In this document: positions 19,792-43,514 of the stretch, one piece after another
Numbering within the stretch: the first letter of the stretch is position 1
How the letters are laid out: each line of letters opens with the position of its first letter
Source of the DNA: Trueperaceae bacterium
Lineage (GTDB): Bacteria; Deinococcota; Deinococci; Deinococcales; Trueperaceae
Reading direction: 5' to 3'
Assembly: GCA_965213925.1 (NCBI GenBank)
Contig: OZ243927.1
Span: forward strand, 864,001-928,000
DNA: 64,000 nucleotides
Notes under the pieces: generated by a model
Seen by the model: only the letters and a program-made list of their open reading frames with translations
Told to the model about the DNA's origin: nothing
The model's database searches: none
Position numbers and translations under genes: made by a program

Positions 19792-20682
19792 ATGGACGAA
19801 TAAGAGACACTCATATTGACAAATTGTGTTGAGGAATACCTGAAAGCTCGTAATCTGGACGGCTACAGTGACAAAACGCTCTATTCCTACAGGCTGCATC
19901 TAAATCGTTTGACCGCAGATTTGGGCAATGCCACTCCTATCGACATTATCAAGCTCGAACATCTACGTTCTCACCTCACCAGCCTGACGCATCTGCAAAC
20001 CTCAAGTTTGGCGAACAAGGTCCGCGCCCTTAAAGCCTTTTTCAAGTGGCTCTACGAGGAGGAGATATTGGAGCGCAACCCCGCACTGAAGCTGAGGGAG
20101 CCGCGCTTACCCGCGAGAATCCCTAAAGCGCTTTCGGTTGAAGAAGTTGAGCTGCTGCGTGACGCCTGTGAGAGTTTATTGGAGCACGCCTTAGTCGAGT
20201 TCTTCTTCGCCACCGGCTGCCGTGTGAGCGAAATTCACCAACTGGACCGCATCGACCTCGACTGGGTGCGGCGCAGCGCAGTCGTGCTGGGCAAGGGTAA
20301 TAAGGAGCGCGAGGTGTACTTCGGAGCAAAAGCCGCGCTGTGGCTCAAACGATATCTCGACAGCCGAACGGATAGCTCTTTGGCGCTATTCGTTACGAAG
20401 CGACGAAGACGCCAGCATAGCGGGGCTTTAGAGCATCAGCGTCTCAGCACGTCGCAGATACAACGCATCTTTAAGCGTGTGGCGCGGCGGTGCGGCTTGG
20501 AGGAGAAAGTAACCCCTCACGTGCTGCGCCACACGCTCGCAACTCTTCTGCTAAACCAAGGTGCACCGATCGCTGCCGTGCAGTCCATCCTCGGGCACGC
20601 CTCGCCCACCACAACACAGCTCTATGTCAACCTCTCCGGTGAGTCGCGGCAGATGCTCTACAAAAGGCATTTCCCGCAGTAA
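19792..20682 (+). CDS. Tyrosine recombinase/integrase (XerC/D-like); ATG at 19792 is followed by an in-frame TAA at codon 4, and the ORF resumes at TTG 19816
   Basis: N-terminal SAM-like domain; catalytic R (TGCRVSE), K (GKGNKER), HxxR (HVLRH), H (LGH), Y (TTQLY). Confidence 0.9.
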
Positions 20683-20730
20683 GGAAAGGTTGTTCTTTTG
20701 TCAGCGAAAGGGAAGCTGTATAATACAGCT

Positions 20731-20955
20731 ATGGCTGACAGCAATTTTGAGCGCACCTTCGCGGCTTTACCTCCCGACCTCAAGCAAGAGGTCCAAGACT
20801 TTGCTGAGTTTCTCCTTTCCAAGCGATCAACGCAAGATAGAGCTGTGAGTGACGCTCACCCGCTCGCGAGCTTAGCGGGCGCATGGCGCGACGAGCCGCT
20901 CTCGGACGAAGACCTCTTGCCTGAACGAACGCTCGGACGCGGCGTCGATCTCTAA
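20731..20955 (+). CDS. DUF2281-like antitoxin
   Basis: LPPDLKQEVQDFAEFL...LAGAW; upstream of a PIN toxin. Confidence 0.7.
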   Translation: MADSNFERTFAALPPDLKQEVQDFAEFLLSKRSTQDRAVSDAHPLASLAGAWRDEPLSDEDLLPERTLGRGVDL

Positions 20956-20962
20956 ATTCTAG

Positions 20963-21364
20963 GTGCTTTATCTTCTCGACACGGATACGCTTGTTTTCTA
21001 CTTGCGGGGACGCTCCGAGGTGAGACAGAAAATTCTCAGCGTCCCTACGGATGATCTCTGCACTAGCGCTATGTGCATCGGCGAGCTTTATTATGGTGCG
21101 GAGAAATCTCAGAAGCAAGTGGAGCGAAAAGCCGAGGTCGACCGCTTGCGTGCGGCGCTGATGAGCATCCCTCTGCAAGGGGCGGTGATGGAGCGCTTCG
21201 GTCAGTTGAAGGCGTCGCTCGAGAAGCAAGGCGAGCGGCTAGCTGACGCCGACTTACTGATCGCGGCGACAGCTCTGGAAAACAACCTCACGCTCGTCAC
21301 GGGCAACCTCAAGCACTTCCAGCGTGTGCAGGGGCTGAAGATGGAGAGTTGGATCAAGCGCTGA
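20963..21364 (+). CDS. vapC: VapC PIN-domain toxin
   Basis: YLLDTD, GELYYGA, DLLIAATAL, LVTGNLKHF. Confidence 0.9.
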   Translation: MLYLLDTDTLVFYLRGRSEVRQKILSVPTDDLCTSAMCIGELYYGAEKSQKQVERKAEVDRLRAALMSIPLQGAVMERFGQLKASLEKQGERLADADLLIAATALENNLTLVTGNLKHFQRVQGLKMESWIKR

Positions 21365-21385
21365 AACGTCAGAAGGGCTGAGCCA

Positions 21386-21417
21386 TTATGCGTGAGACGC
21401 GCGCGTCTCTTGCAGAA
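21386..21417. repeat. 32-bp candidate recombination site G
   Basis: TTATGCGTGAGAC-GCGCGC-GTCTCTTGCAGAA (30/32 identical to site A). Confidence 0.85.
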
Positions 21418-21438
21418 GAAATCAGCAAGTATAACTCT

Positions 21439-21873
21439 TTAAGAGGTGGTTGCATCCTTCGGAGGGTAACGCCCTATTGCCTGCAAAACCTCCCGCTCCA
21501 GCAGCCTTTCGCGGACGTTGAACTGGAGCAGGCGTTCGGTGACGCGGGCGATATCGGTGAGCGGCATGATCTTCACCTGGTCGAGTTCGAAATGCTCAGC
21601 CCACAGGTCCACTCGCGGATTGTAAAAGCGCGCGAACGCCTCTGTCTTCCAGTCGATCGAGCCGATGTCGCTTCCCTTAGCGCGATTACAGACCACGCAG
21701 GCGAGTGCTAGGTTGTCCTCTTCGGTCCGCCCGCCGTGTTTCTCGCTGATGATGTGATCGATTTGCATTGCGTAGTAGCTGTCGTCTTCGTGGATCAAGC
21801 AGTATTCGCAGCATCTATTCGCCTTAGCTAAAACGCGCTGGCGCAGGTCCGCCGGGATATACGTTTTACTCAC
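21439..21873 (-). CDS. HNH endonuclease
   Basis: CCEYC...IDHIISEKHGG...NLALACVVCNRAKG...YNPR. Confidence 0.85.
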   Translation of the reverse strand: MSKTYIPADLRQRVLAKANRCCEYCLIHEDDSYYAMQIDHIISEKHGGRTEEDNLALACVVCNRAKGSDIGSIDWKTEAFARFYNPRVDLWAEHFELDQVKIMPLTDIARVTERLLQFNVRERLLEREVLQAIGRYPPKDATTS

Positions 21874-22099
21874 TCAGCAATTGCCTAGCTTTGGCTTTCG
21901 CTAAGCGCATAACGTGCTCGAGCTGCATATACTGGTCGAGCTCGCGACGCTCGTCCTGGGATAACCCCTGCGCCTTCTCTTGTTCGATAAGTTCGGCGAC
22001 CCGTGCTTGTGCGCCCTCAGAGGGGCGGAAGGAGACAACCCCAGAGGGATTTGCACCTGCGATCAGGTCAACGATTTCTTGGTAAGCGAGGGTTGCCAT
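21866..22099 (-). CDS. Small helical protein coupled to the HNH gene (antitoxin-like)
   Basis: FRPSEGAQARVAELIEQEKAQGLSQDERRELD; overlaps the HNH start. Confidence 0.7.
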   Translation of the reverse strand: MATLAYQEIVDLIAGANPSGVVSFRPSEGAQARVAELIEQEKAQGLSQDERRELDQYMQLEHVMRLAKAKARQLLSE

Positions 22100-22131
22100 A
22101 ACGCTATTATACCTCAGCTTGAGAAATGGGA

Positions 22132-22163
22132 TTCTGCGTGTGATGCGCGCGTTCGCCGCACAA
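22132..22163. repeat. 32-bp candidate recombination site H
   Basis: TTCTGCGTGTGAT-GCGCGC-GTTCGCCGCACAA. Confidence 0.85.
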
Positions 22164-22216
22164 AATTATCGAAGAGAACAAACGATGCGATGAGAAACTA
22201 CTTTGTGCCCCAACAT

Positions 22217-22678
22217 CTACCGTTTGAGCAGTCGCGGGTCATAGTTGAACGCTTGCGCCTCGCCGATCTCTACTCGCCCAGCATCGGGATGGTTCGGATT
22301 AAAAAGGTAGTTCCGTTCCGCCGCGACCACACGGCTCGGCACCGCGAGGAGCACCGACGCGTTACGCTTGACCCAAGCGTCCCCGATCGCTTGAGTGGTA
22401 GGTAGACCTTCAGGCTCAGCCCAGTTCTCGGACAAGCTCTCAGGCGACACGTTCAGTAGAAGCGTTTCGCCAAAGGTAATTGGAATAGCTGTATAAGGCT
22501 CAAGCGCACGCTCGTAGTCGATGTGGACGAGTAGCTCCAAAGCTGCGAGGGCTAAACTGCTCGCTAGATAAACGACTGCCGTGCCCGCTGAGTTCCAGCG
22601 ACCTCCGTAACGCCGCGCCCCCTCACCGTCGAATGCGGATGCAGCCCATTTAGGCGCGACGAGCCGCCAGGCTTTCAG
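22217..22678 (-). CDS. RES-domain toxin (NAD+ phosphorylase family); apparent CTG start overlapping the antitoxin stop
   Basis: Frame extends beyond the ORF track call: LKAWRLVAPKWAASAFDGEGARRYGGRWNSAGTAVVYLASSLALAALELLVH...VPS...NYLFNPNHPD. Confidence 0.85.
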   Translation of the reverse strand: MKAWRLVAPKWAASAFDGEGARRYGGRWNSAGTAVVYLASSLALAALELLVHIDYERALEPYTAIPITFGETLLLNVSPESLSENWAEPEGLPTTQAIGDAWVKRNASVLLAVPSRVVAAERNYLFNPNHPDAGRVEIGEAQAFNYDPRLLKR

Positions 22679-23124
22679 TAGAACACTCCATGCTCAACAC
22701 GGTGTAGTAGATGCTCGACCTCGCGCGCTCCCAGCTCACTATGGGCGAGTTCGAAAGGCGTTTGTCCGCCAAAAACTGGGCGCGGTGTCTGCATCCAACG
22801 CCGAGCTAAATCTTTGTCTCCAATGACCTGAGTCGCTAGAGCATAGAGTTCGGCAAAGCGCACCAACCGCTCGGATGGGCTGGACTCGAGTGGCGCACCC
22901 GCCTCTTCACGCCGCTGAACTGTGCGTAAGGAGAGACCAACTGCCTTCGCGAGGTCCTCGCGGGCAATACCTGCAGTCTTGCTGAACTGATCAAAGGCAG
23001 CAGCCGATAAACCTGAGCGCACCGTGCGGATACGCTCGAGCGGGGTACTCTGCGCCAGACCTAAAGCTGCATCCCAGATGCTCTGCTCCGCCGGGGGTGG
23101 GGTGAAATCGAAAACAGCATCCAT
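22675..23124 (-). CDS. Xre/MbcA/ParS antitoxin
   Basis: HTH LSLRTVQRR, ARRWMQTP, FGGQTP, VEHGVF. Confidence 0.85.
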   Translation of the reverse strand: MDAVFDFTPPPAEQSIWDAALGLAQSTPLERIRTVRSGLSAAAFDQFSKTAGIAREDLAKAVGLSLRTVQRREEAGAPLESSPSERLVRFAELYALATQVIGDKDLARRWMQTPRPVFGGQTPFELAHSELGAREVEHLLHRVEHGVFY

Positions 23125-23265
23125 AGCTAACCTCCAGACTACTGTCAATAATTATACGACAGAAGTCGCGTCAAGGCAGACTATTTATCGACATGTATGG
23201 TCAGTACACCTAACTGTCTTGAGGGGCTGATGTAGCGTATGCATGACCGCCCAGCCTACGCCTCG

Positions 23266-23352: not shown

Positions 23353-24734
23353 TTACTCCTTCACTGTGTCCAAACCCGCCGCCCGCCACGCTTTCATACT
23401 TCCTAGAACGTTCGTCACTCCAAAACCGCGCCGTTCAAGCAGACTCACCGCGATGCTCGCCCGGTAGCCGCTGCCGCAGTAAACCGTCACTGGTCTCTCT
23501 TGGTCCAACGTCTCTAGGTGTTCAGCCAGAAAGTGCAGGAAGACGTGCTGCGCACCGGGGATGAACCCCGCTTGCCACTCGTCCTCGCGCCGCACGTCGA
23601 GGAGCTGACCGACGTCGCCTGCTGCTATCTTGCGGTTCAGGTCGTGGACGCTCATACGTCCGGACGTTTCAAGTTCACGTCCCGCTTCGGTTCAGGTACG
23701 CATCCCGCCCCGCAAGTAGCCTATGACCTTGTCGAAACCGGTTCGCAGCAGGTGGGTTTGCGCCCTGGCCGCCGTCGCGCTGTCCTCACTGATGAGCACC
23801 AGCCGCTGCTCTGGGTCCAGCATCCAGCCGCACCAGATGGGGAAGGACGAGCGCAGCGCGATGTTGAGGCTGCCTTCAATGTGCGCTCCCGCGAAGGGTC
23901 GATCTCGCGGGTGTCGAGGAGCAATACGTCCTCTCGCCGTCGCAGGTCGTCCACCCGGTCCGGCGACAAGGCGCTCAGGTGGGGGCGCGGGCCTAGCGGT
24001 TCGGGACCCTGGGTATTCAGCCTTTTCATCCGGGGGTAGTAGCGCGGCTCCGGCGACAGCTCCGCCAAGACCTGTTCGGTAAATTTGGCTTCGCTGTTGA
24101 GTTGCAGCTTGGCGTTATGCGCCTTTTCATACCCCAAGGTTGTGCGGTCTCTCACCCCAATGCTGCCGCCGCAGGGTGAGCCCTCGCCGTGGGCGGGATA
24201 GACCTCGAGCGTCTCCGGTAGGCTGAGTAACTTTTGAAGCGAGCCGTAGAGGTCGCGGGCTAGCGCTTCTTCGCTCTTGCCCGTGGCGAGGTGGGGCGGC
24301 CCCACCTCGCTAGCGAAAAGGGTATCGCCTGTAAAGACTGCCCAGGGTTCCTCCGCTCCTTTACCGCCGCCGCGCACCACAAAGCAGACGTGCTCCGGGG
24401 AGTGCCCCGGCGTGTGCAGCACCTCGAGGGTGAAGGGGCCGACAGAGAGCGTGTCACCCTCCTTGAGCGCTTCGATCTCGAAGCCGTAGTCGCCTGCACC
24501 CACATAAATCGTTGCACCTGTCCGTGCAGCGAGTTCACGGCTGCCCGAGACGAAGTCGGCGTGGATGTGGGTCTCTAAAACGTGTGTGATGCGCAGTTGA
24601 TGACGCTGGGCTAGCCCCAGATAAACCTCAATGTCGCGGCGTGGGTCGATCACCGTGCAGACGCCCGCACCACTATTCCCCAAGAGGTAGGAGAGGTGCG
24701 CGAGCCCATCCGACTTGATAGTTTCTAAGATCAC
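23353..24734 (-). pseudogene. MBL-fold persulfide dioxygenase fused to rhodanese domains, disrupted
   Basis: THIHADF, HTPGH, GDTLF, PAHG; frameshift near 23895; in-frame TGA at 23692-23694 in GYLRGGMRT*TEAG; terminal rhodanese YCGSGYRAS. Confidence 0.8.
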
Positions 24735-24799
24735 GGTTTTCCTCCATCTGTCAGAGCTTCGGGCGCACCCTGGCTACTCCTATAAGTGCGACCGGCGCG

Positions 24800-25780
24800 G
24801 GAACAGATGGAACTCGACGCCCGCGACGTGTGGCGCGCGCCAACTATCAAGAGGTGAAAGAGGGGCGCGGCACCGAGGCGGGCGGCGTGTTCCTAGACAT
24901 TTCACATAGGGACGCCGACTTCAAGAGGGGAGCGCCTCGGCACCGAGGCGGGTTCAAAGACGGCGTGTTCCTAGACATTTCACATAGGGACGCCGACTTT
25001 ATCCGGGAGCGCCTCCCTAAGATCGTTCGCCAGTTCAAAGAGCAGGGCGTGGACATCACCGCTGAGCCGATGGAGGTCGCCCCGACCGCGCACTACGCGA
25101 TGGGCGGCATCAAGATAGATTTCGGGACGGGCGAGACGGACGTGCCGGGGCTCTTCGCCTGCGGCGAGGCCACCTCGGGGGTGCATGGCGCGAACCGCTT
25201 AGGGGGTAACTCGCTCTGCGAGACGGTGGTCTTCGGGAAGGTTGTCGGCGCACATGTGGCGGGCGAGATAGGCGCGCTGCCCGAGCCGAACGTTGACGAG
25301 GACGAGGTGGACGCCGAACTCGCTCGGCTCCGCGACCTGAGCGAGGCAGATGGAGATACAGAACCCGACGCGCTGATAGACGAACTCGGCAACCTGCTCT
25401 GGGACCGCGCGGGGATCGTCCGCAACCAGGTGGGGCTCGAGCAAGGGCTAGAGGAGCTGGCTACGTTGCGCGAACGCGCTCAAAACCTCCGCGTCGAAGG
25501 GGGCGTGACGGGTCACGACTTCGAGTTCGCCAACAACTTACAGTTCATGCTGCTCGCAGCCGAAGCTATCCTGCGCGGCGCGCTCATGCGGGACGAGTCG
25601 CGCGGCGCGCACCACCGCGACGACGCCCCGGAGGAGAAAGAGGAGTGGCAACAGAACATCCTCTACCGCAAAGAAGGCGGGCAGATGGCGCTGACGACCG
25701 AGGCGGTCGGTGAAGTACCCGAAGGGATTCAGCACGCCATAGAGGAGGGGCACACGCTCGAGTATCATCACCTGGAGTAG
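24800..25780 (+). pseudogene. 5'-truncated SdhA/FrdA/NadB-family flavoprotein with an internal duplication
   Basis: ELDARDV (frameshifted), [48 protein letters not shown] present twice. Confidence 0.75.
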
Positions 25781-33454: not shown

Positions 33455-35677
33455 CTATGGGGAGGTATACACCCAATTTAGAAGTGCGCCTTCAACGCCC
33501 CCCGACACCAGACTGTCGCCATCAGATGACCAATCAAGGGCGAGAGAGCCAAAATCACCGAACGTCGTTTGCTGATGCCCTTCCAACCCCGTAATTCTTT
33601 CACCGGTGGCTGCCACCCAAACATGCACGCCGTCGTCCGCCTTCGCTTCGTCATCGTAGGTTGAACCTGACGTGGCGAGCCGGTGACCGTCAGGGCTCCA
33701 CGCTAACTCGTCAATGCCGTAAGGCGCTTCGATTGTAGCTAATGTTTTCTCTGAAGTACTATCAATGATTTGAACTTTTCCGCTCGACCCGCCGACGGCG
33801 AGCCGCTGGCTGTCAGGACTCCAGGCGATAGTTTTCGGATCTCGGTCAATTGTGAACGTGTGCATAAGGCGGCTAGTTTCCGCGTCCCACACTTTGACCT
33901 CGTCATAGCCTCCTCCAGCGAGCTTTGTCCCATCAGGGCTCCACGCCAGAGTAAAAATAGGGCGATAGTCTTGAACCTCGAATGTTTTGAGTAAGCTACC
34001 TGTCGTCCCATCTCGCACCTTGATCGTGCCATCTTGACCCCCACTTGCCAATCTCGTGCCGTCCGGACTCCAGCCGACTGCGTATACCTCACCACGGTGC
34101 GCGTCAACCGAGAAGAGTTGTTTGCGCGTAGCCATATCCCAAATCTTTAGAGCGCCTTCGTTGTCCTGACCACTGGCGCTTGCTAATTTTGAACCGTCCG
34201 GGTGCCAAGCGATGGCGTGAACAAAAGTGTCAAGCTCCGCTAGTGTACCGAGGCTGCGCCCCGAGGCGGCCTCCCAAACCTTAACGGTTCCGTCGTAACC
34301 TCCGCTCGCTACCTTGCCTTCGTGCAATTTGACAGTGGCGACCCGAGCCGCGTGACCGTTCGACGACATGACCTTTTGTCCGCTCTCGGCGTTCCACACG
34401 CTAAACCAAGGGATGGTGTCGTCGGCCGCAAAACGGTCGCCGTCGGGGTGCCAGTCTGCTCCTAAGACCACTCGAGCCTTCCCTACGACGCGCAGCATTT
34501 CTCTGCCCGTAGCGGCGTCCCAGATTCTTAGTTCACCCTCAGTTCCACCCCCTAAGATGCGATTCGTATTGGGTTCCCAGGCTACGACCAGAGGTTGAAA
34601 GTAATCTTCGTCGTCATCTCTCAACAGGACGCGCACAGGCTGACCCGTGTCAGCGTCCCAGATCACGACCTTGCCGCCGTTGCCGCTACTCACAAACTGC
34701 GAGCTGTCGGCGTTCCAGTCGACGTCCCAGACCCCTCCGAAAACATCAATCTCATAGAGGTGTTCGCCGGTTTCTGCATTCCATACACTGATCGAACGGT
34801 CTCCACCTACGATCTTCTCGCCATCCTGACTCCACGCCACAGCGTTATAGGTGTAATTATCGAGGCTCCAAAGCTCCTGGCCGCTCGCTATGTCCCACAC
34901 CCGCAATAACGCGTCGCCGCAGCTAACAAGTTTAGTCCCATCCGGACTCCAAGCTATATCGGTGACTTCTTCTGTATGTCCGACTAGGTCGGCGACGACT
35001 TCGCCCGTTGCCACAGACCAAACTTTAAGGCTTCCGCCCTTAAACGGTGCACCCGAACCACTTGCCACGAAAAGTCCATCCGGACTAAATGCGACCGCTT
35101 CGGCTTTTGCCGAATAGGTGTCGGAATCGAAATGATCATCGAGAGTGAATTTTAGGCTTCCCGTGGTTGCGTCCCAAAGTTTGACCATGCCGTCTGCCCC
35201 GCTAGTCGCGAGCAACTGTCCAGTCGGGCTCCAATCTAAATAGCGGACCTCCGCTGTATGGCCTGCGCCGAGTTTCCAGGCTACGTTAGTAGAGGGTAAC
35301 TGCCCTTCAACTTCTATCTTGCGCGTCGCTTTCGAGGACGTGCTCTTTGCGGAAAGCGTATAAGTTGTCTCTCCAACCGACCAGACAGCAGCTTCGGATA
35401 AACCGCTGACGTCGCCTATATCTGGCTCGAGAGTGAGCGTCAGCGACTCATCGGGAACTTGCCAGCTCAGCTGTACAGCCTCTCCGGCGGGCACAGTGAG
35501 CGTGGAAGCGGTCAATGACGTGATTAAAGTGGGGTCTGTCTCGAGGTCGACCGGGTTGTTGCCGTCTTTTACCTCATGAGTACACGATACTAACAGAGCC
35601 AAACTAAGAAGGAGGGAGCCGACGAGCCGTCTTTGATAAAAAGCCCGCACGTTCAGGCTGCTGAAATAGCGTCTCAT
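33455..35677 (-). CDS. WD40-repeat lipoprotein (probable double beta-propeller)
   Basis: Lipobox-like LLVSC; about 14 GH...WSPDG...WD repeats; ATGA overlap with the upstream gene. Confidence 0.9.
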   Translation of the reverse strand: MRRYFSSLNVRAFYQRRLVGSLLLSLALLVSCTHEVKDGNNPVDLETDPTLITSLTASTLTVPAGEAVQLSWQVPDESLTLTLEPDIGDVSGLSEAAVWSVGETTYTLSAKSTSSKATRKIEVEGQLPSTNVAWKLGAGHTAEVRYLDWSPTGQLLATSGADGMVKLWDATTGSLKFTLDDHFDSDTYSAKAEAVAFSPDGLFVASGSGAPFKGGSLKVWSVATGEVVADLVGHTEEVTDIAWSPDGTKLVSCGDALLRVWDIASGQELWSLDNYTYNAVAWSQDGEKIVGGDRSISVWNAETGEHLYEIDVFGGVWDVDWNADSSQFVSSGNGGKVVIWDADTGQPVRVLLRDDDEDYFQPLVVAWEPNTNRILGGGTEGELRIWDAATGREMLRVVGKARVVLGADWHPDGDRFAADDTIPWFSVWNAESGQKVMSSNGHAARVATVKLHEGKVASGGYDGTVKVWEAASGRSLGTLAELDTFVHAIAWHPDGSKLASASGQDNEGALKIWDMATRKQLFSVDAHRGEVYAVGWSPDGTRLASGGQDGTIKVRDGTTGSLLKTFEVQDYRPIFTLAWSPDGTKLAGGGYDEVKVWDAETSRLMHTFTIDRDPKTIAWSPDSQRLAVGGSSGKVQIIDSTSEKTLATIEAPYGIDELAWSPDGHRLATSGSTYDDEAKADDGVHVWVAATGERITGLEGHQQTTFGDFGSLALDWSSDGDSLVSGGVEGALLNWVYTSP

Positions 35678-36798
35678 TTGAAGAAGAGGCTCCAAAGGAT
35701 AACTTCTGCTCCTCGGCTACCAGAGACGAGAAACTGGCCGTCCGAACTCCAATCAAGCGTGGTAACTGATCCGATATGACCTATAAGTGAAACAAGCTCT
35801 TGGCCGGTTATGGCGTTCCAGATTTGGACACTTTGGCCGTCGCCGCTGGCGGCGAGTTGAGTACCGTCAGGGCTCCAGCTAAGCCCATAGATAAAGCGGT
35901 TAACGTCTGAATATATAGTGAACGGCTCCGAAGGAGATATCAGGGTCCATACCTTAACCTTGGACGAGTCAAGCGTAGCGGCTAAACGCGTACCGTCAGG
36001 GCTCCAAGCCAAATTGTGCACGCTATCGTAAGTGTCAAGCCCTTTCAAGACAATTTCCTTGCTCGTCGCGACCTCCCAAACGCTAACGTCTCCCCACTGG
36101 TTGCCCGCTGCGAGAAAACGTCCATCTGGACTCCAGACGATGTCAGCGATGCGGCCGGAGATTCCAGAAAAAGACACGCCCTCAGTCCCGGTCGCAGCGT
36201 CCCAGGTCTTAATAGCGCCTATACCGCTGTCTTTTAATTCGCCTCCTGCCGAGCGGACGCCATCCGGCCCCCAGTCGATAATCGCTTCGTAGCTGCCTTC
36301 AATCGTAAGTTGAAGACCTCCAGATGTTACGTCCCAAGTCTTGAATCTAGCCACGCTACCTGTCCCAGCGCCAGGGACGATTTCATAATAAGCAGCTGTT
36401 GTAAAGGCGCTGCCATCAGGCTTCCAAGTTGCGTCATCGAAGCCTGGATAGCTATTGTCGGTGAGAGACGATAGTTTCGTTCCGGTTGTAGTCTGCCACA
36501 GGTAGGCAACACCATCACGGGCAACGCTTAAAACACGGCTGTTGTCTGGGCTGAAGGTTACGGCAGTCACCTCGTCTTGGTGCCCCGCCGCGAAGGTGGT
36601 AATGGTCAGATCCTTCGCAGCAGTGTCTGCATTCCATAGTCCAAGCGTGCCATCTGTGGCTCCTGTGAGAAGTTTAGTGCCCTCTGGATGCCAAGCAATG
36701 TCGGCTTCCCAGGAAGAAAGTCCCTCCGTCTCCTTAGCGCCCTTGAGTTCTCGCAGCGCAGACCCAGTTGAGGCATCAGCAAGAATGGCATGGAGATC
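35674..36798 (-). pseudogene. 5'-truncated WD40-repeat protein
   Basis: WD40 frame continues upstream of 36570 (DIAWHPEGTKLLTGATDGTLGLWNA) to about 36798, where cas5e sequence takes over. Confidence 0.8.
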
Positions 36799-36800
36799 CC

Positions 36801-37073
36801 TAGCCGATCTATCTCGGTCGGCGTGGCTACTATCCGAGCGTCCCGCTGTTTGTCATTGACGGGCTGAAAAAGGCGAGTTTGGAGGAGGCTATCGCTACCT
36901 ATCCCCGTGTCCTAGCCGATAAAGCGGTGCGGTTCGCCGACTGCCACATCGAAGGCAAAGGCAAGGTCGTACACGACCAGCCCGTCAGCTTCGCCACTCA
37001 TACCTTCGGACCCCGGAGGGTCTACCACTGCTGCGTCAGCAAGTTAGGAGCATCATGTACGTCACCGAACTGA
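36801..37073 (+). pseudogene. cas5e: C-terminal half of type I-E Cas5 (Cas5e/CasD)
   Basis: *PIYLGRRGYYPSVPLF...DQPVSFATHTFGPRRV matches the Cas5e LYLGRKSCxPSxP and DxPxSF...F..R motifs; overlaps the cas6e start. Confidence 0.8.
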
Positions 37074-37723
37074 CCTTAAACCAGGACAACCTCTTCGCCA
37101 TGCGCGACGTCGCCGACCGCTACGAGACGCACCGCTCTGTGAAGCGCTTGACCGAAGGGATGGAGCGCAGGGTTTTGTGGCGGCTCGACATGCAGCGTGA
37201 ATGGCGGCTCACGGTTCAATGTGAGCGTCCGCTCGAGCCGCGCTATGTGTCCAAGGCGATGCCCGGATACGCCGATCAAGTCCGGAGCGCGGAGGTTGCT
37301 ACGAATTTCGACCCTGGCGACCTGCTCCTCTTCCAGCTCGAGGCGAACCCGACCGTGAAGTGTGCCAAAAAGCGGCGGGCGCTAAAGAGTATGGCTGAGC
37401 TACAGGAGTGGCTACAAAGGAAGTTTGATGATGCAGGTTGTGAACTCCTAGACTTTGCAATCTTGAAGCAGCAAGCGTTACGGTTATATCGCCAGAAGAG
37501 GCCAGATGAACAAGAAAATGACGACGAGAATGGGTGTAAGTACGCCATGTTCAACAGCGTCAGGTTCATGGGCAGCACTAAAGTAGTAGACCTTAAAGCG
37601 CTCAAAGATACGCTCGAGGCTGGCATCGGCAGCGCGAAGGGATATGGCTTTGGGTTGCTCTCATTGCGACCTATCCCTTACAGAGACATAGCTGGAGTTA
37701 AAGTCTCAAAAAGCGTGTGTTGA
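37055..37723 (+). CDS. cas6e: Type I-E CRISPR endoribonuclease Cas6e/Cse3
   Basis: MYVTELTL, YETHR, VLWRLD, FQLEANPT, QEWLQRK, G-rich loop GIGSAKGYGFGLLSL. Confidence 0.93.
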   Translation: MYVTELTLNQDNLFAMRDVADRYETHRSVKRLTEGMERRVLWRLDMQREWRLTVQCERPLEPRYVSKAMPGYADQVRSAEVATNFDPGDLLLFQLEANPTVKCAKKRRALKSMAELQEWLQRKFDDAGCELLDFAILKQQALRLYRQKRPDEQENDDENGCKYAMFNSVRFMGSTKVVDLKALKDTLEAGIGSAKGYGFGLLSLRPIPYRDIAGVKVSKSVC

Positions 37724-37729
37724 TCGAGC

Positions 37730-37878
37730 CTTTTCCCCACTCGCGTGGGGGTGGCGCGGGCGACTGATGCGCCTCGCCCTACTCCTCGCCTTTTCCCCAC
37801 TCGCGTGGGGGTGGCGCGCAAACGGGCGCGGCGAAGGGCAAAGAGGGCATTCTTCCCCACATTGGTGGGGGCGGTACC
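37730..37878 (+). CRISPR. Type I-E mini-array: 2 identical repeats, 1 diverged terminal repeat, 2 spacers (60-bp period)
   Basis: CTTTTCCCCACTCGCGTGGGGGTGGCGCG at 37730 and 37790; TTCTTCCCCACATTGGTGGGGGCGGTACC at 37850; CCCCAC/GTGGGG stem plus 8-nt handle; starts 7 bp after the cas6e stop. Confidence 0.92.
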
Positions 37879-38048
37879 ATCAGCAGAGCAAATCAAAAGC
37901 GAAAGCTGGAGTAAGTCCAGTGCATCGCGGCGAATCGCCAAAATACATTGGACGGCTGATGTATAGAAATGTCGATATCCAAGACATTGGGCGCATGATG
38001 TTTGAAACTCTTGATTAGACGAGGACTTACAGGAAGGCGTAGCAACTC

Positions 38049-38711
38049 CTATGTTGCGACTGGATGTCGAATCTCTCCAATCATGAGTCCCATTACTATG
38101 CTCGATTGGAACCAGCAGAAATTCTCGTCAACAGGGGCACGAAGTACATCCGTGAAACGCAGGTCGTACCCGCAAATTACGCAACAGTGGAGTTCCTCTT
38201 CGTCACCTCTACCGATCACTATAGCGCTCCCATAGCTATCACACTCGGTGTGTAGAAAGTTCTTATGATGTACGCAAACGCTGCAAAAGCTATACATCCA
38301 CTCCCGCCGAAAGAAAGGTTGCGTGTCCTCGAGAAGGCAGCGCGGACAATATTGAGTTGTGACAATTGGTTTAGGAGTTTTCGTCTGACGTGGGCGGTGA
38401 GAAAGTAGCTCACGCGAGCGGACACTCGCGCTTTTAATGCGTACCCGTGTCGGCGCAAGCAGCGCTTCGATATCGCCCACTGCTTGACCCGTACCCCGAG
38501 CCAAAACCTCGACCACGCTTTCTAGCTGACTGCCCTTTCGGTCTCTTATCCCTTTAGGGATAAGAGACTTGAGCAGCTTTTTTCCACTCCGCTTCTCCAA
38601 CACCTTCCAAAATCTATCCCAAGCTAAGCCGTTGCTCACAGCCAACCTAGCAACCCAGGAAGCGAAACTCTCACCTTGAAACAGTGAAGCGTGATACAGC
38701 CACAAATCCAT
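38049..38711 (-). CDS. tniQ: TniQ family target-selector protein
   Basis: N-terminal LWLYHASLFQGESFASWVARLAVSNG; Zn-binding QYCPRCLLED..PFFRREW...CVHH...CCVICGYDL. Confidence 0.85.
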   Translation of the reverse strand: MDLWLYHASLFQGESFASWVARLAVSNGLAWDRFWKVLEKRSGKKLLKSLIPKGIRDRKGSQLESVVEVLARGTGQAVGDIEALLAPTRVRIKSASVRSRELLSHRPRQTKTPKPIVTTQYCPRCLLEDTQPFFRREWMYSFCSVCVHHKNFLHTECDSYGSAIVIGRGDEEELHCCVICGYDLRFTDVLRAPVDENFCWFQSSIVMGLMIGEIRHPVAT

Positions 38712-38834
38712 ATGACAGTGTAGCAAATAGAGCAGCTTTCTTCGAAAGGACTGAAGTTGTAAACCGCTTCGGAGATCGCCCGTATACAGCCACTTTGTGA
38801 TATTATGCAGATGTGCCCCGCCCGAGCCAGAGCG

Positions 38835-38880
38835 ATTCTCAGTATTCTTTACCTATTCTCAAAATTCTTTGTTTCTGACA
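38835..38880 (-). mobile_element. Tn7-like transposon end (terminal TGT plus two putative TnsB-binding repeats)
   Basis: Minus strand reads TGTCAGAAAC-AAAGAATTTTGAGAAT-AGGT-AAAGAATACTGAGAAT; repeats at 38855-38870 and 38835-38850, 20-bp period. Confidence 0.7.
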
Positions 38881-38883
38881 CAC

Positions 38884-39908
38884 CTATTCGAATAGAGGCG
38901 ACTGCGGCGGATAGTTCGTAATCATGACCTCTTTGCCCTTCGCCGCGCCCTCTTGCTTATAGTTGTTCATCCCGTACTGAAGTTCCCAAGGGACGATGTG
39001 CGCAAATGAAAAGAGCGCCCTGACCTCTTCGCAATCGTCATAAGTGATGAGCCATTTGTGCTTCACCTTTTGCATCACGGCGGCAAAACGCTCGTGATCG
39101 AAGGTCGTGTGCAGCTTCCCTTTTTTGCCGTAGAGCTTTGACTTTGTAGCGGATAAATAGGGCGGGTCCAGGAAAATAAAGACGTTTTCGCCGCCTAACG
39201 CACCGGGAGACCCGGATGCTGCGGACCCTAAACCCGGATGCTGCGGACCCTAACGCACCGGGAGACCCGGATTTCGCCGGACCCTAACGCACCGGGAGAC
39301 CCGGATGCTGCGGACCCTAACGCACCGGGAGACCCGGATGCTGCGGACCCTAACGCACCGGGAGACCCGGATGCTGCGGATGGCGCTAAGACGACCTCTT
39401 CGTAGTCGAGATTGGTAATCTTGGTCCCTTCAAGAAGAGGGGCGACGCGCCGTAAACGCCCTATCGAGGACTGCGTGAAGCGCTTTTCAAATGCACCTTG
39501 CGAATAGCCGCCCGCTTCGACCGTGCCCGAAAAGGTGATGCGGTTGAGGAGAAAAAAGCGGATGGCTCTGTGTAAGGGTGCGTCGGGTACGTTATCGACC
39601 AATGAGCGGTGCAGCGTGCGTCCGTCTGTCACCGTATCTTTCTGCTGCTGCACGCCTTCGACGAGCGCCTCTGGGCAATCGCGTAGGTAAAGCCAGAAGT
39701 GGTAAAGCTCTGCGTTGAGGTCGCTAATCCAGAACGAGGCGTTTGGGTGTTGCTGCCGCAAAGCTAAAAAGACAGAGCCGCCCCCTATGAAGGGTTCGCG
39801 GAACTCGCTGAACGTTGGAACGAGCGGCAGGATGGTTTTAAGTGCTTTTGCCTTACCGCCTGGATACCTCAGCGGTGTTTTTACCGAAGTGAAAAGACCG
39901 TCTTGCAT
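38884..39908 (-). CDS. dam: Dam-family (D12 class) DNA adenine methyltransferase, frameshifted within a 33-bp tandem repeat as assembled
   Basis: TPLRYPGGK, EPFIGGGSVF, SDLN in 39228..39908; FIFLDPPY, FDHERF, WLITYDD, EVMITNY in the downstream frame. Confidence 0.85.
38924..38958 (-). other. Protospacer for CRISPR spacer 2 with 5' AAG PAM, in the 3' end of dam
   Basis: Minus strand AAG|CAAGAGGGCGCGGCGAAGGGCAAAGAGGTCAT versus spacer CAAACGGGCGCGGCGAAGGGCAAAGAGGGCAT: 29/32. Confidence 0.9.
39194..39380. repeat. 33-bp tandem repeat (about 5.5 copies, two aberrant)
   Basis: Unit CCTAACGCACCGGGAGACCCGGATGCTGCGGAC (GSAASGSPGAL); one 22-bp and one 34-bp copy. Confidence 0.9.
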
Positions 39909-41688: not shown

Positions 41689-43428
41689 ATGTCGAGAGCA
41701 CATAAATACGACGTGATTGTGATTGGCGCGGGCGGCTCAGGGTTGATGGCGGCGCGGTACGCGGCGCAGGAGCCCGGCGTGTCCGTCGCGGTCATCAGTA
41801 AACTTTACCCGACCCGCTCGCATACAGGGGCGGCGCAAGGGGGTGTGGGCGCAGCTTTAGGCAACGTCACCGACGACCACCCCGACTGGCACGCCTTCGA
41901 TACGGTCAAGGGTGGCGACTACCTAGCGGACCAAGACGTCGCGGAGATGTTCGCGTACGAAGTCGTCGAGGCAGTCTACGAGTTAGAGCACATGGGCTTG
42001 CCCTTCTCACGTACGCCTGAAGGCAAAATCGCCCAGCGTAAATTCGGTGGGCACACCCGCGAATTCGGCAAGAGCGCCGTCGAACGTGCCTGCTACGCGG
42101 CGGACCGCACGGGTCACATGATTTTGCAGACGCTCTATCAGCAGTCCATCAAGAACAACGTGACCTTTTTCAACGAGTTCCACGTGCTCGACATGATCAT
42201 GGAAGCCGGTGAGTGTCGCGGCGTGGTGGCGTACGAGCTTGCCACGGGCGAGCTTCACACCTTCCAGGCGAAAGCCACGATTGTCGCCACCGGCGGCAAC
42301 GGGCGCATGTTCAAAGTGACCTCGAACGCGCACGCCTTGACGGGCGACATGATGAGCGTCGTCTACCGGCGCGGCATCCCGATTGAAGACCCCGAGTTTT
42401 ACCAGTTCCACCCGACGGGTCTCTACAAAATTGGCGTTTTACTGACTGAGGGCGCAAGAGGTGAAGGTGGGATTTTGCGTAATAGCGAGGGCGAGCGCTT
42501 TATGGAGCGTTACGCGCCTTCCATCAAGGACTTAGCGCCGCGGGACATGGTCTCGAGGGCGATGTACCTAGAGATGCGCGAAGGGCGCGGCACCGGACCC
42601 GACGCCGACTACATCCACCTCGACCTCACCCACATCGACGATCACATCATCGAGACGCGCCTCCCCGATATCACCGAGTTCGCCCGGATTTACCTAGGCG
42701 TTGACCCCTTAAACGAGCCCGTCCCCGTGCAACCCACCGCGCACTACGCGATGGGTGGCATCCCCACGACCATCGACACCGAAGTCATCATGGACGGCGA
42801 CAACGCCGTCGTGCCAGGGCTCTACGCCGCAGGTGAAACAGCGTGCGCCTCGCTGCACGGCGCGAACCGCCTCGGCACAAACTCGTTAGGCGACCTCATC
42901 GTGTTCGGACGCCGCGCGGGTATCTTCGCTGCTCGTTACGCCGCGGGAGCGGAGTACGGCAAGCTGCCTTTAGACGCGCAAGACTTTGCTAAGAGCCAAC
43001 TCGACACCGCGCTGAACGGCTCTGGTAAGGAGCGCGTGAGCCGCATTCGTAAAGAGATGCAAAACACCATGATGGACAACGCCTCGGTCTTCCGCACTGA
43101 AGAGACCCTGTGTACGCAGATCGAAAAGCTCAGAGAACTCAAAGAGCGCTATAAAGGCATCGGCGTTGAGGACAAGGGCGAGCAGTTCAACACGGAGCTG
43201 ATGGAAGCGATTGAACTCGGCTTCCTTTTAGACAACGCCGAGCACCTCGTCCACGCGGCGTATAACCGCAAGGAATCGCGCGGCGCGCACTCCCGCGAGG
43301 ACTACAAGGAGCGCAACGACGACGAGTGGCTCAAGCACACGCTCGTCTATAAAGACGGCGACGGCGTGCGCATCGACTATAAACCCGTAACCTTGGGCAA
43401 GTACGAGCCTAAGCCGAGAGTTTATTAA
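41689..43428 (+). CDS. sdhA: Succinate dehydrogenase flavoprotein
   Basis: [32 protein letters not shown]. Confidence 0.97.
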
Positions 43429-43514
43429 GCAACTCAGCGTCTCAGCTAGTCAGCATTTCAGGTCTTTCCTGACTAGCTGACTAGCTGACCGGCTGAAATG
43501 CTATAAGGATTTTT

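What the first reader, a model, noticed from the sequence alone, without database searches (positions are those of the whole stretch)
37819..38958. Spacer 2 targets the adjacent dam gene with a canonical I-E PAM
Seen: spacer 37819-37850 CAAACGGGCGCGGCGAAGGGCAAAGAGGGCAT matches the minus strand at 38955-38924 (CAAGAGGGCGCGGCGAAGGGCAAAGAGGTCAT) at 29/32, with mismatches at positions 4, 5 and 29. It is preceded by AAG, the established I-E PAM. The PAM-distal end points at the predicted transposon end 43 bp away (75 bp from the PAM), the geometry expected for RNA-guided insertion. Inference: this is a homing spacer, and the 3' end of dam is the attachment site.
Basis: partly seen in the sequence, partly recalled or inferred. 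Interest (0 to 1): 0.92.

Follow-up and report, generated by a model that had tools for sequence, protein, structure and literature searches.

The report
Type I-E CRISPR-guided Tn7-like transposon relic
This is the broken tail end of a jumping DNA element that appears to use a type I-E CRISPR guide RNA to pick its landing spot beside a host gene, a pairing of transposon and CRISPR type that has more complete relatives in related bacteria and could become a new programmable DNA-insertion tool.

Summary
Observation confirmed. Spacer 37819-37850 matches the minus strand at 38955-38924 at 29/32 (mismatches 4, 5, 29) behind AAG; the next best genome site has 8 mismatches. A Tn7-type end closes at 38880, 43 bp past the protospacer and 3 bp past the methylase stop; a sister species has the empty site. 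The window holds only a relic: a cas5e fragment, cas6e, a mini-array, tniQ with a premature stop, and one end. No matching tnsABC or second end was found in the genome. The same module sits in 4 of 364 phylum genomes, each with its last spacer matching a different adjacent host gene (dam-like, arginase, ruvC, pilT; AAG/AGG; gaps 43, 42, 36, 23 bp). G282 has a two-ended 49-kb copy: tnsABC, I-E Cascade, tniQ, no cas1 or cas3. Two orphan ends have AAG exactly at gap 42. Best reading (0.85): an RNA-guided Tn7-like CAST built on type I-E Cascade plus short TniQ. I found no such system described in seven library searches, though one review lists I-E among Tn7-like captures. Against: seed mismatches, variable gaps, a degenerate TnsC and 4-bp duplication in G282, no activity data. 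The scan held no note on look-alike DNA.

The parts
36804..37070 (+). 3' third of cas5e; the 5' part and everything upstream of it (cas7, cas8e/cas11, tnsABC in relatives) is missing
   Evidence: Pfam Cas_Cas5d positions 138-217, E 0.0023; 62% identical to residues 141-228 of G282 Cas5e; contigs of run X1 break at 36803 and depth rises from 8 to 16 there
37055..37723 (+). cas6e, intact ORF of the transposon-linked type
   Evidence: TIGR01907 casE above cut-off; 58% identical to G282 Cas6e, whereas G282 Cas6e is 37% identical to the host's canonical Cas6e; tree
37730..37758 (+). CRISPR repeat 1 (29 nt, I-E hairpin with 7-bp stem and 4-nt loop)
37759..37789 (+). spacer 1 (31 nt), target unknown
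   Evidence: best genome hit 6 mismatches without a PAM; no convincing hit in phages, plasmids or viral contigs
37790..37818 (+). repeat 2, identical to repeat 1; its last 8 nt (the crRNA 5' handle) differ from the host I-E handle at 5 of 8 positions
37819..37850 (+). spacer 2, the homing guide (32 nt)
37851..37879 (+). degenerate terminal repeat that keeps the 7-bp hairpin
37893..38711 (-). short tniQ (about 270 codons), convergent with the array; premature in-frame stop at 38049-38051 in this strain
   Evidence: Pfam TniQ E 3.6e-17; homology to G282 TniQ (55%) runs through the stop; a contig of run X1 has a sense codon there
38834..38880 (-). target-proximal transposon end with two TnsB-type sites (38854-38870 and 38834-38850)
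   Evidence: homology break against the empty site in G001 at 38881
38881..38885 (+). first host bases outside the end (one half of the expected target duplication; partner not found)
38924..38955 (-). protospacer in the last codons of the dam-like gene
38956..38958 (-). AAG PAM
38884..39908 (-). D12-class (dam-like) adenine methylase gene, the attachment gene; frameshifted by a 155-bp expansion of 33/22-nt repeats near 39227-39381
   Evidence: Pfam MethyltransfD12 on both halves; intact 291-codon frame in G001; alignment; repeats
35677..36852 (-). WD40 gene whose 5' end runs into the cas5e fragment: the break that removed the rest of the element

Best explanation
The window carries the target-proximal end of a decayed Tn7-like CRISPR-associated transposon that uses a nuclease-free type I-E Cascade. 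In the complete form (G282; G001 with lesions) the order is tnsA-tnsB-tnsC-cas8e(::cas11)-cas7-cas5e-cas6e, a 1-2-spacer array, tniQ on the opposite strand, the end, and then the host gene. Shown: the anatomy, the spacer-flank matches, the PAMs, the distances and the empty sites. Inferred: Cas6e cuts the array; Cascade with the last spacer binds the protospacer beside AAG; the short TniQ docks at the PAM-distal end and recruits TnsC and TnsAB; insertion falls 42-43 bp beyond the protospacer with this end facing the target. Insertions spare the host gene: 3 bp past the dam-like stop, about 17 bp past the arginase stop, and at ruvC and pilT the end supplies a start or stop codon. The guide was set for this lineage's own methylase allele, probably by a host Cas1-Cas2 acting in trans (inferred). 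After landing, this copy lost everything upstream of 36804 and gained a stop in tniQ, so it cannot move by itself.
For: Module found in 4 of 364 phylum genomes. In 4 of 4 the last spacer matches the gene just outside the end, with the PAM-distal edge toward the element and an AAG or AGG PAM: mismatches 3, 2, 8 and 6 of 32; chance 6e-12, 9e-14, 2e-6 and 1e-8. Mismatches in G282 (12, 30) and G018 (6, 9, 12, 15, 22, 24) lie mostly at third-codon or every-sixth positions. G282 has both ends 48,985 bp apart, with the same 4 bases outside each and a second target-proximal end stacked at the same base. Empty sites exist in G001 (dam-like), G005 (arginase, 1 mismatch to the G282 guide) and G000/G002 (ruvC). 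2 of 2 orphan two-site ends have AAG exactly at gap 42, against a background of 0.018 per position; 2 false-positive end matches at a host gene start do not. No cas1 or cas3 lies in the G282 element or the G001 island. Control: 26 of 27 other cas6e loci have cas1 nearby and 0 of 27 have tniQ, against 0 of 4 and 4 of 4 here. The geometry matches 43-45 bp from the target end for I-F3 (PMC11300857) and 75 +/- 6 bp from the PAM for I-D (PMC9881144).
Against: No activity or RNA data. Seed mismatches at 4 and 5 here and at 5 in G001. Gaps of 36 (G001) and 23 (G018) do not fit one fixed distance; these elements are only 24-44% identical to G282 (G001) and their second ends were not found. G282 TnsC has a degenerate Walker A and no Walker B acidic pair, while G001 TnsC is canonical. 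The only measurable duplication is 4 bp, whereas a review gives 5 bp for Tn7 and all relatives (PMC11406308). Every copy seen carries some lesion or oddity. G018 has no tnsABC on its contig, and its place in the same lineage is unresolved.
Confidence: 0.85

Rival explanations
1. Protein-guided Tn7-like element with a passenger Cascade: TniQ chose the site, and the flank-matching spacer was picked up afterwards from neighbouring DNA.
For: Gaps differ between elements (23-43 bp). Seed mismatches would hinder Cascade binding. TniQ trees do not resolve one clade.
Against: The TniQs are short (frames of 254-308 codons), whereas most other TniQ/TnsD hits in the phylum run 324-828. Close relatives (55% TniQ identity) sit at unrelated genes. 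After-the-fact acquisition would not give one orientation, one PAM class and gap 42-43 at four sites. G018 and G001 spacers differ from their flank mostly at third-codon positions, so they came from another allele before arrival.
Confidence: 0.06
2. A Cas3-less I-E Cascade silences or regulates the adjacent host gene (CRISPRi-like), and the transposon end nearby is incidental.
For: A methylase, ruvC and pilT are plausible genes for a mobile element to repress. There is no Cas3 in the elements.
Against: The dam-like, arginase and pilT protospacers lie in the last codons, poorly placed for repression. The end is at a near-constant distance and side in the close clade.
Confidence: 0.04
3. Spacer 2 is aimed at a phage or plasmid methylase, and the chromosomal match reflects family conservation.
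For: The methylase is patchy (6 of 128 family genomes at E<=1e-40), as mobile genes are. One seed mismatch falls in a codon that varies among orthologs.
Against: No better match in 50,697 phage or 72,556 plasmid records or in viral contigs. The adjacent allele fits best: 3 mismatches against 6 for G001 and 12-15 for five distant family loci. The other three guides match chromosomal housekeeping genes.
Confidence: 0.02

Closest known systems
Type I-F3 CASTs (Tn6677, Tn6900)
   Same: Tn7-like TnsABC, one short TniQ, no cas1/2/3, mini-array, last spacer homes to a chromosomal gene with mismatch tolerance and altered repeats; about 43-45 bp offset (PMC11406308 and PMC11300857, passages)
   Different: Cascade is type I-E (Cas8e, Cas11e, Cas7e, Cas5e, Cas6e). 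tniQ lies downstream of the array on the opposite strand. I-F3 uses mostly four fixed att genes across the group, whereas each element here has its own.
Type I-B1/I-B2 and I-D CASTs (AvCAST, PmcCAST, McCAST)
   Same: Type I Cascade with TniQ; McCAST inserts 75 +/- 6 bp from the PAM, against 74-75 bp here; a comM-homing I-B1 variant with a single TniQ exists
   Different: Different Cascade subtype. No TnsD partner was seen in the G282 element. TnsA and TnsB are separate. Hosts here are not cyanobacteria.
Type I-E5 telomeric CAST of Streptomyces (Hsieh et al., 10.1101/2024.11.13.623437)
   Same: Type I-E Cascade tied to TnsB/TnsC, no cas1-cas2
   Different: I-E5 lacks TniQ, keeps an active Cas3, is one-ended and telomeric, and has no protospacer beside its end (passages). 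Here TnsA and TniQ are present, Cas3 is absent, two ends exist, and the protospacer is adjacent.
Rpn-associated type I-E Cascade loci (Rybarski et al., 10.1101/2021.08.16.456562)
   Same: I-E Cascade beside a putative transposase
   Different: Non-Tn7 (Rpn nuclease; passages).

Membership tests
Tn7-like CAST | TnsA, TnsB, TnsC genes inside the element | tested here: met
   G282 and G001. Not found in the window's genome with G001 or G282 queries, so the window copy is a relic.
Tn7-like CAST | TniQ-family target selector beside the cas genes | tested here: met
   4 of 4 loci; 0 of 27 control cas6e loci
Tn7-like CAST | Loss of adaptation and interference genes; minimal array | tested here: met
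   No cas1 at 4 of 4 cas6e loci; no cas1 or cas3 in the G282 element or the G001 island; cas3 only elsewhere in the genomes; 1-2 spacers
Tn7-like CAST | Two ends with TG termini and arrays of TnsB sites | tested here: met
   G282 has both ends; only one end was found in G000, G001 and G018
Tn7-like CAST | 5-bp target-site duplication | tested here: inconclusive
   One measurable case, with 4 identical bases on both sides; could be a true 4-bp stagger or a 1-bp loss
Tn7-like CAST | Homing spacer with insertion at a fixed distance from the protospacer | tested here: met
   Close clade: 43 and 42 bp with spacers, 42 and 42 bp by PAM at orphan ends; divergent members 36 and 23 bp
Tn7-like CAST | ATPase-competent TnsC | tested here: inconclusive
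   Walker motifs canonical in G001, degenerate in G282
Tn7-like CAST | RNA-programmable insertion shown in an assay | not testable with these tools
   Needs a bench assay
CRISPR subtype I-E | Cas8e, Cas11e, Cas7e, Cas5e, Cas6e; 29-nt repeat with 7-bp stem and 4-nt loop; AAG-type PAM | tested here: met
Type I-E5 telomeric CAST | No TniQ, Cas3 retained, one end | tested here: not met
   TniQ present, Cas3 absent, two ends in G282
Type I-F3 CAST | Type I-F Cascade subunits | tested here: not met
   PADLOC models give I-E subunits
Dam family (TIGR00571) | Score above the curated cut-off | tested here: not met
   93.5 against 114.85 for the intact G001 protein; Pfam D12 class is met

The most novel reading that the evidence does not exclude
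An independent capture of type I-E Cascade by a Tn7-like transposon that re-aims its single homing guide far more often than known CASTs: at least six different landing genes in five genomes of one family, each sparing the host gene. New guides come from host I-E adaptation, the guide is kept private by an altered 5' handle and seed tolerance, and the G282 branch works with a 4-bp stagger and a TnsC that has shed its ATPase motifs.
Probability: 0.3. Interest if true: 0.9.

Novelty: new variant of a known kind. Interest (0 to 1): 0.78.

Why it matters
Type I-E Cascade is the best-studied class 1 effector, yet the 2025 classification lists no TniQ-coupled Tn7-like CAST of subtype I-E (PMC12669027, passages). 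A natural TnsABC-TniQ-I-E set would show how TniQ adapts to another Cascade and offers a new starting point for programmable insertion of large DNA. G282 gives a two-ended copy with a 2-mismatch guide and a known empty site to test. Different homing genes in close relatives also make an open question testable: how a CAST without Cas1-Cas2 gains a new attachment site, and how it avoids a resident I-E Cas3 system, which this host has.

Tried and rejected
Rfam found nothing in the window, and ARAGORN found no tRNA or tmRNA. Word-seeded scans of genome contigs and metagenome contigs found no confirmed relative; these scans are insensitive at this divergence. Viral contigs gave no repeat or spacer hit and one weak hit that was not followed. 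The second end was not found in G000 (TSD scan, PSSM, BLAST, pattern), in G001 or in G018; the hit in G001 is coding DNA. Two further end-pattern hits in G005 and G282 are a host gene start and were rejected. The Cas8e-Cas11 fusion is not unique to this family, so it is not claimed as a hallmark. The G282 tyrosine-recombinase-like gene was considered as a TnsF-like selector but not tested beyond family scans. The TniQ fold from four sequences had mean pLDDT 45.5 and was not searched. No TniQ-Cas6e complex prediction was obtained, so binding is untested. No RNA holder listed. Promoter and terminator scans were at chance level. The source names and cluster members of P0002-P0007 could not be looked up. 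Faure et al. 2019 (Nat Rev Microbiol) is not held and was not read. Supplements of the CAST surveys were not opened and could list these loci.

Full report
1. Observation. The array at 37730-37879 has two identical 29-nt repeats, a degenerate third, and spacers of 31 and 32 nt. All three repeats fold into the 7-bp-stem, 4-nt-loop I-E hairpin (repeats 1 and 3 folded). Spacer 2 matches 38955-38924 on the minus strand with mismatches at 4, 5 and 29, behind AAG. No other site in the 4.75-Mb genome has fewer than 8 mismatches; the chance estimate is 6e-12. The end reads TGTCAG inward from 38880, with two TnsB-type sites. In sister species G001 the same methylase gene is intact and followed by hisA, and homology with the window stops at 38881. 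The gap is 43 bp.

2. What the window holds. From left to right: a 5'-truncated WD40 gene, the last third of cas5e (36804-37070), cas6e, the array, a convergent tniQ with an in-frame stop at 38049-38051, the end, and the methylase. Searches with the G001 and G282 proteins found no TnsA, TnsB or TnsC in G000 and no second Cas8e or Cas7 beyond the host's canonical I-E locus at C1:3.97 Mb, which has cas3, cas1 and 14 repeats. G000 is 96.9% complete. No far end was found. In public run X1, which may be the source sample, a contig over 37790-39216 has a sense codon at the tniQ stop and no change in spacer 2, the protospacer or the end. Depth doubles at 36803, where contigs break. A contig of X2 is identical to the window. 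So a co-occurring strain has an open tniQ and possibly a different, fuller left side (inference). The methylase is broken by a 155-bp repeat expansion that is absent from G001 and from a diverged contig in X1; this lesion lies far from the insertion.

3. Relatives. TniQ and Cas6e profiles were run over 364 genomes of the phylum: 35 genomes had a TniQ match and 97 a Cas6e match. By the listed coordinates the two are adjacent in 4 genomes, all in the host's family. I infer the phylum to be Deinococcota from gene content and from Thermus being the only plasmid hits; no call names it. G282: tnsA-tnsB-tnsC-cas8e::cas11-cas7-cas5e-cas6e-array-tniQ-end-arginase, 48,985 bp between ends, cargo including an Ssp/BREX-like defence cluster, the same four bases outside both ends, and a second target-proximal end stacked directly behind. 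Its last spacer matches the arginase 3' end with 2 mismatches, AAG, gap 42, and matches the empty G005 allele with 1. G001: same order, tnsB split by IS1, a stop in cas8e::cas11, one spacer matching the ruvC 5' end with 8 mismatches, AGG, gap 36. G018: cas8e and cas11 separate, cas7 frameshifted, no tnsABC on the contig, last spacer matching the pilT 3' end with 6 mismatches, AAG, gap 23. Orphan ends of the window's type sit before rraA in G001 and near rpmE in G002, and both have AAG exactly at gap 42. G000 has a more decayed relic at the G002 site. Proteins from two ENA contigs (7077 and 6508 bp, grouped by equal contig length) look like further copies, without context. Control: of 27 other cas6e loci fetched (27 of the 100 places listed), 26 have cas1 nearby and none tniQ; one of these, G035, is an unpublished genome used only in this control and as a tree row.

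4. Origin. The element Cascades are fast-evolving and separate from host systems. Cas5e of G282, G001 and G018 group at 97/95. Cas6e of G000, G282, G001 and P0005 group at 96/85, with G018 apart. Cas7 groups G282, G001, P0164 and P0165 at 97; holding G018 with them is not rejected (AU p 0.51; G018's N-terminal piece left out). Long branches make all three unsure. The TniQ tree joins only the window and G282 firmly. One origin is likely for G000, G282 and G001 and open for G018.

5. Mechanism. The anatomy is that of a one-TniQ homing CAST. Shown: gene content, guides, PAMs, polarity, distances and empty sites. Inferred: crRNA processing, Cascade-TniQ contact, TnsC/TnsAB recruitment and the direction of events. 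The guide fits this genome's methylase (3 mismatches) better than G001's (6) or five distant family loci (12-15), and the gene is patchy (6 of 128 family genomes). The guide was therefore probably acquired recently in this lineage, and close relatives were re-aimed at other genes. On the seed mismatches: positions 4 and 29 differ from both G000 and G001 and so look spacer-side or older, while position 5 differs only in G000 and could be a later escape from the host's Cas3 system (speculation from one case). In E. coli the seed is positions 1-5 and 7-8, every sixth base is flipped out, and AAG is the best PAM (PMC5904413, passages). The 5' handle differs from the host's at 5 of 8 bases, a candidate privacy mark.

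6. Results against. Gaps of 36 and 23 bp in the divergent members. A 4-base rather than 5-base duplication in the only measurable case. Degenerate Walker motifs in G282 TnsC. Seed mismatches. No RNA or activity data. No copy free of oddities. Spacer 1 has no identified target in any of the three two-spacer arrays.

7. Literature. Seven library searches were run (listings and abstract starts seen). Passages only were read from PMC12669027, 10.1101/2024.11.13.623437, PMC10293859, 10.1101/2021.08.16.456562, PMC11406308, PMC11656645, PMC5904413, PMC9881144 and PMC11300857; no supplements were opened. The 2025 classification names Tn7-like CASTs of I-F, I-B, I-D, I-C and IV-A, plus an I-E5 CAST lacking TniQ. 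The 2024 review of Tn7-like CASTs lists five types, none I-E. One 2024 review does list I-E among captures by Tn7-like transposons, citing three papers: Faure 2023 has no 'I-E' in its main text, Rybarski's I-E is non-Tn7, and Faure 2019 could not be read. I take that mention to be the TniQ-less Streptomyces system, which is my inference. Novelty is therefore 'not found in these searches', not proven. The scan's own notes had nothing on look-alike DNA and no I-E CAST among six word hits.

8. Verdict. The larger result is the family: a Tn7-like, TniQ-coupled type I-E CAST whose homing guides differ from one element to the next. It works like a CAST (0.85) and meets the testable membership features except duplication length and TnsC motifs, which are inconclusive. 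The window copy itself is inert. Novelty: new variant of a known kind. Interest 0.78.

Noticed in passing
window 39177-39381: 33/22-nt tandem repeats expanded by 155 bp inside the methylase gene, breaking its frame; absent from G001 and from a diverged contig in run X1. It could be a repeat-length switch or simple decay.
   Followed up: partly
L039:11219-11251 (G018 spacer 1): The spacer ends in the same short motif that recurs as TnsB-type sites in that element's own end; it may target a related transposon end (competition between elements).
   Followed up: partly
L138:1-84 (G018:C158): A far-end-like sequence of the G282 type abuts a 5'-truncated tnsA of another tnsABC operon that has no tniQ directly after it.
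   Followed up: partly
L072:3960-5654 (G282): 565-codon tyrosine-recombinase-like gene divergent from tnsA inside the element; role unknown (resolvase, cargo or TnsF-like).
   Followed up: no
L073:8629-L131:7524 (G282 cargo): SspABCD-like phosphorothioate genes joined with PglZ and BrxL homologs, a hybrid Ssp/BREX-like defence cluster.
   Followed up: no
L034:9349-14496 (G001): A separate Tn7-like element (tnsABC plus a 558-codon TniQ) beside a partial comM-like gene.
   Followed up: no
G000:C1:2117458-2117520 and C1:3260221-3260385: Two more decayed end or tniQ relics of the same element family in the host genome, signs of repeated earlier insertions.
   Followed up: partly
window 24722-25777: Partial second copy of the sdhA flavoprotein C-terminal half, with an internal 39-nt direct repeat; a full sdhA lies at 41689-43428.
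   Followed up: no
window 19804-23151: Tyrosine integrase and a RES-Xre toxin-antitoxin pair, suggesting further island DNA left of the relic.
   Followed up: no
window 43425-43502 and G001/G002: A dispersed short intergenic inverted-repeat family with many copies across the genus.
   Followed up: no
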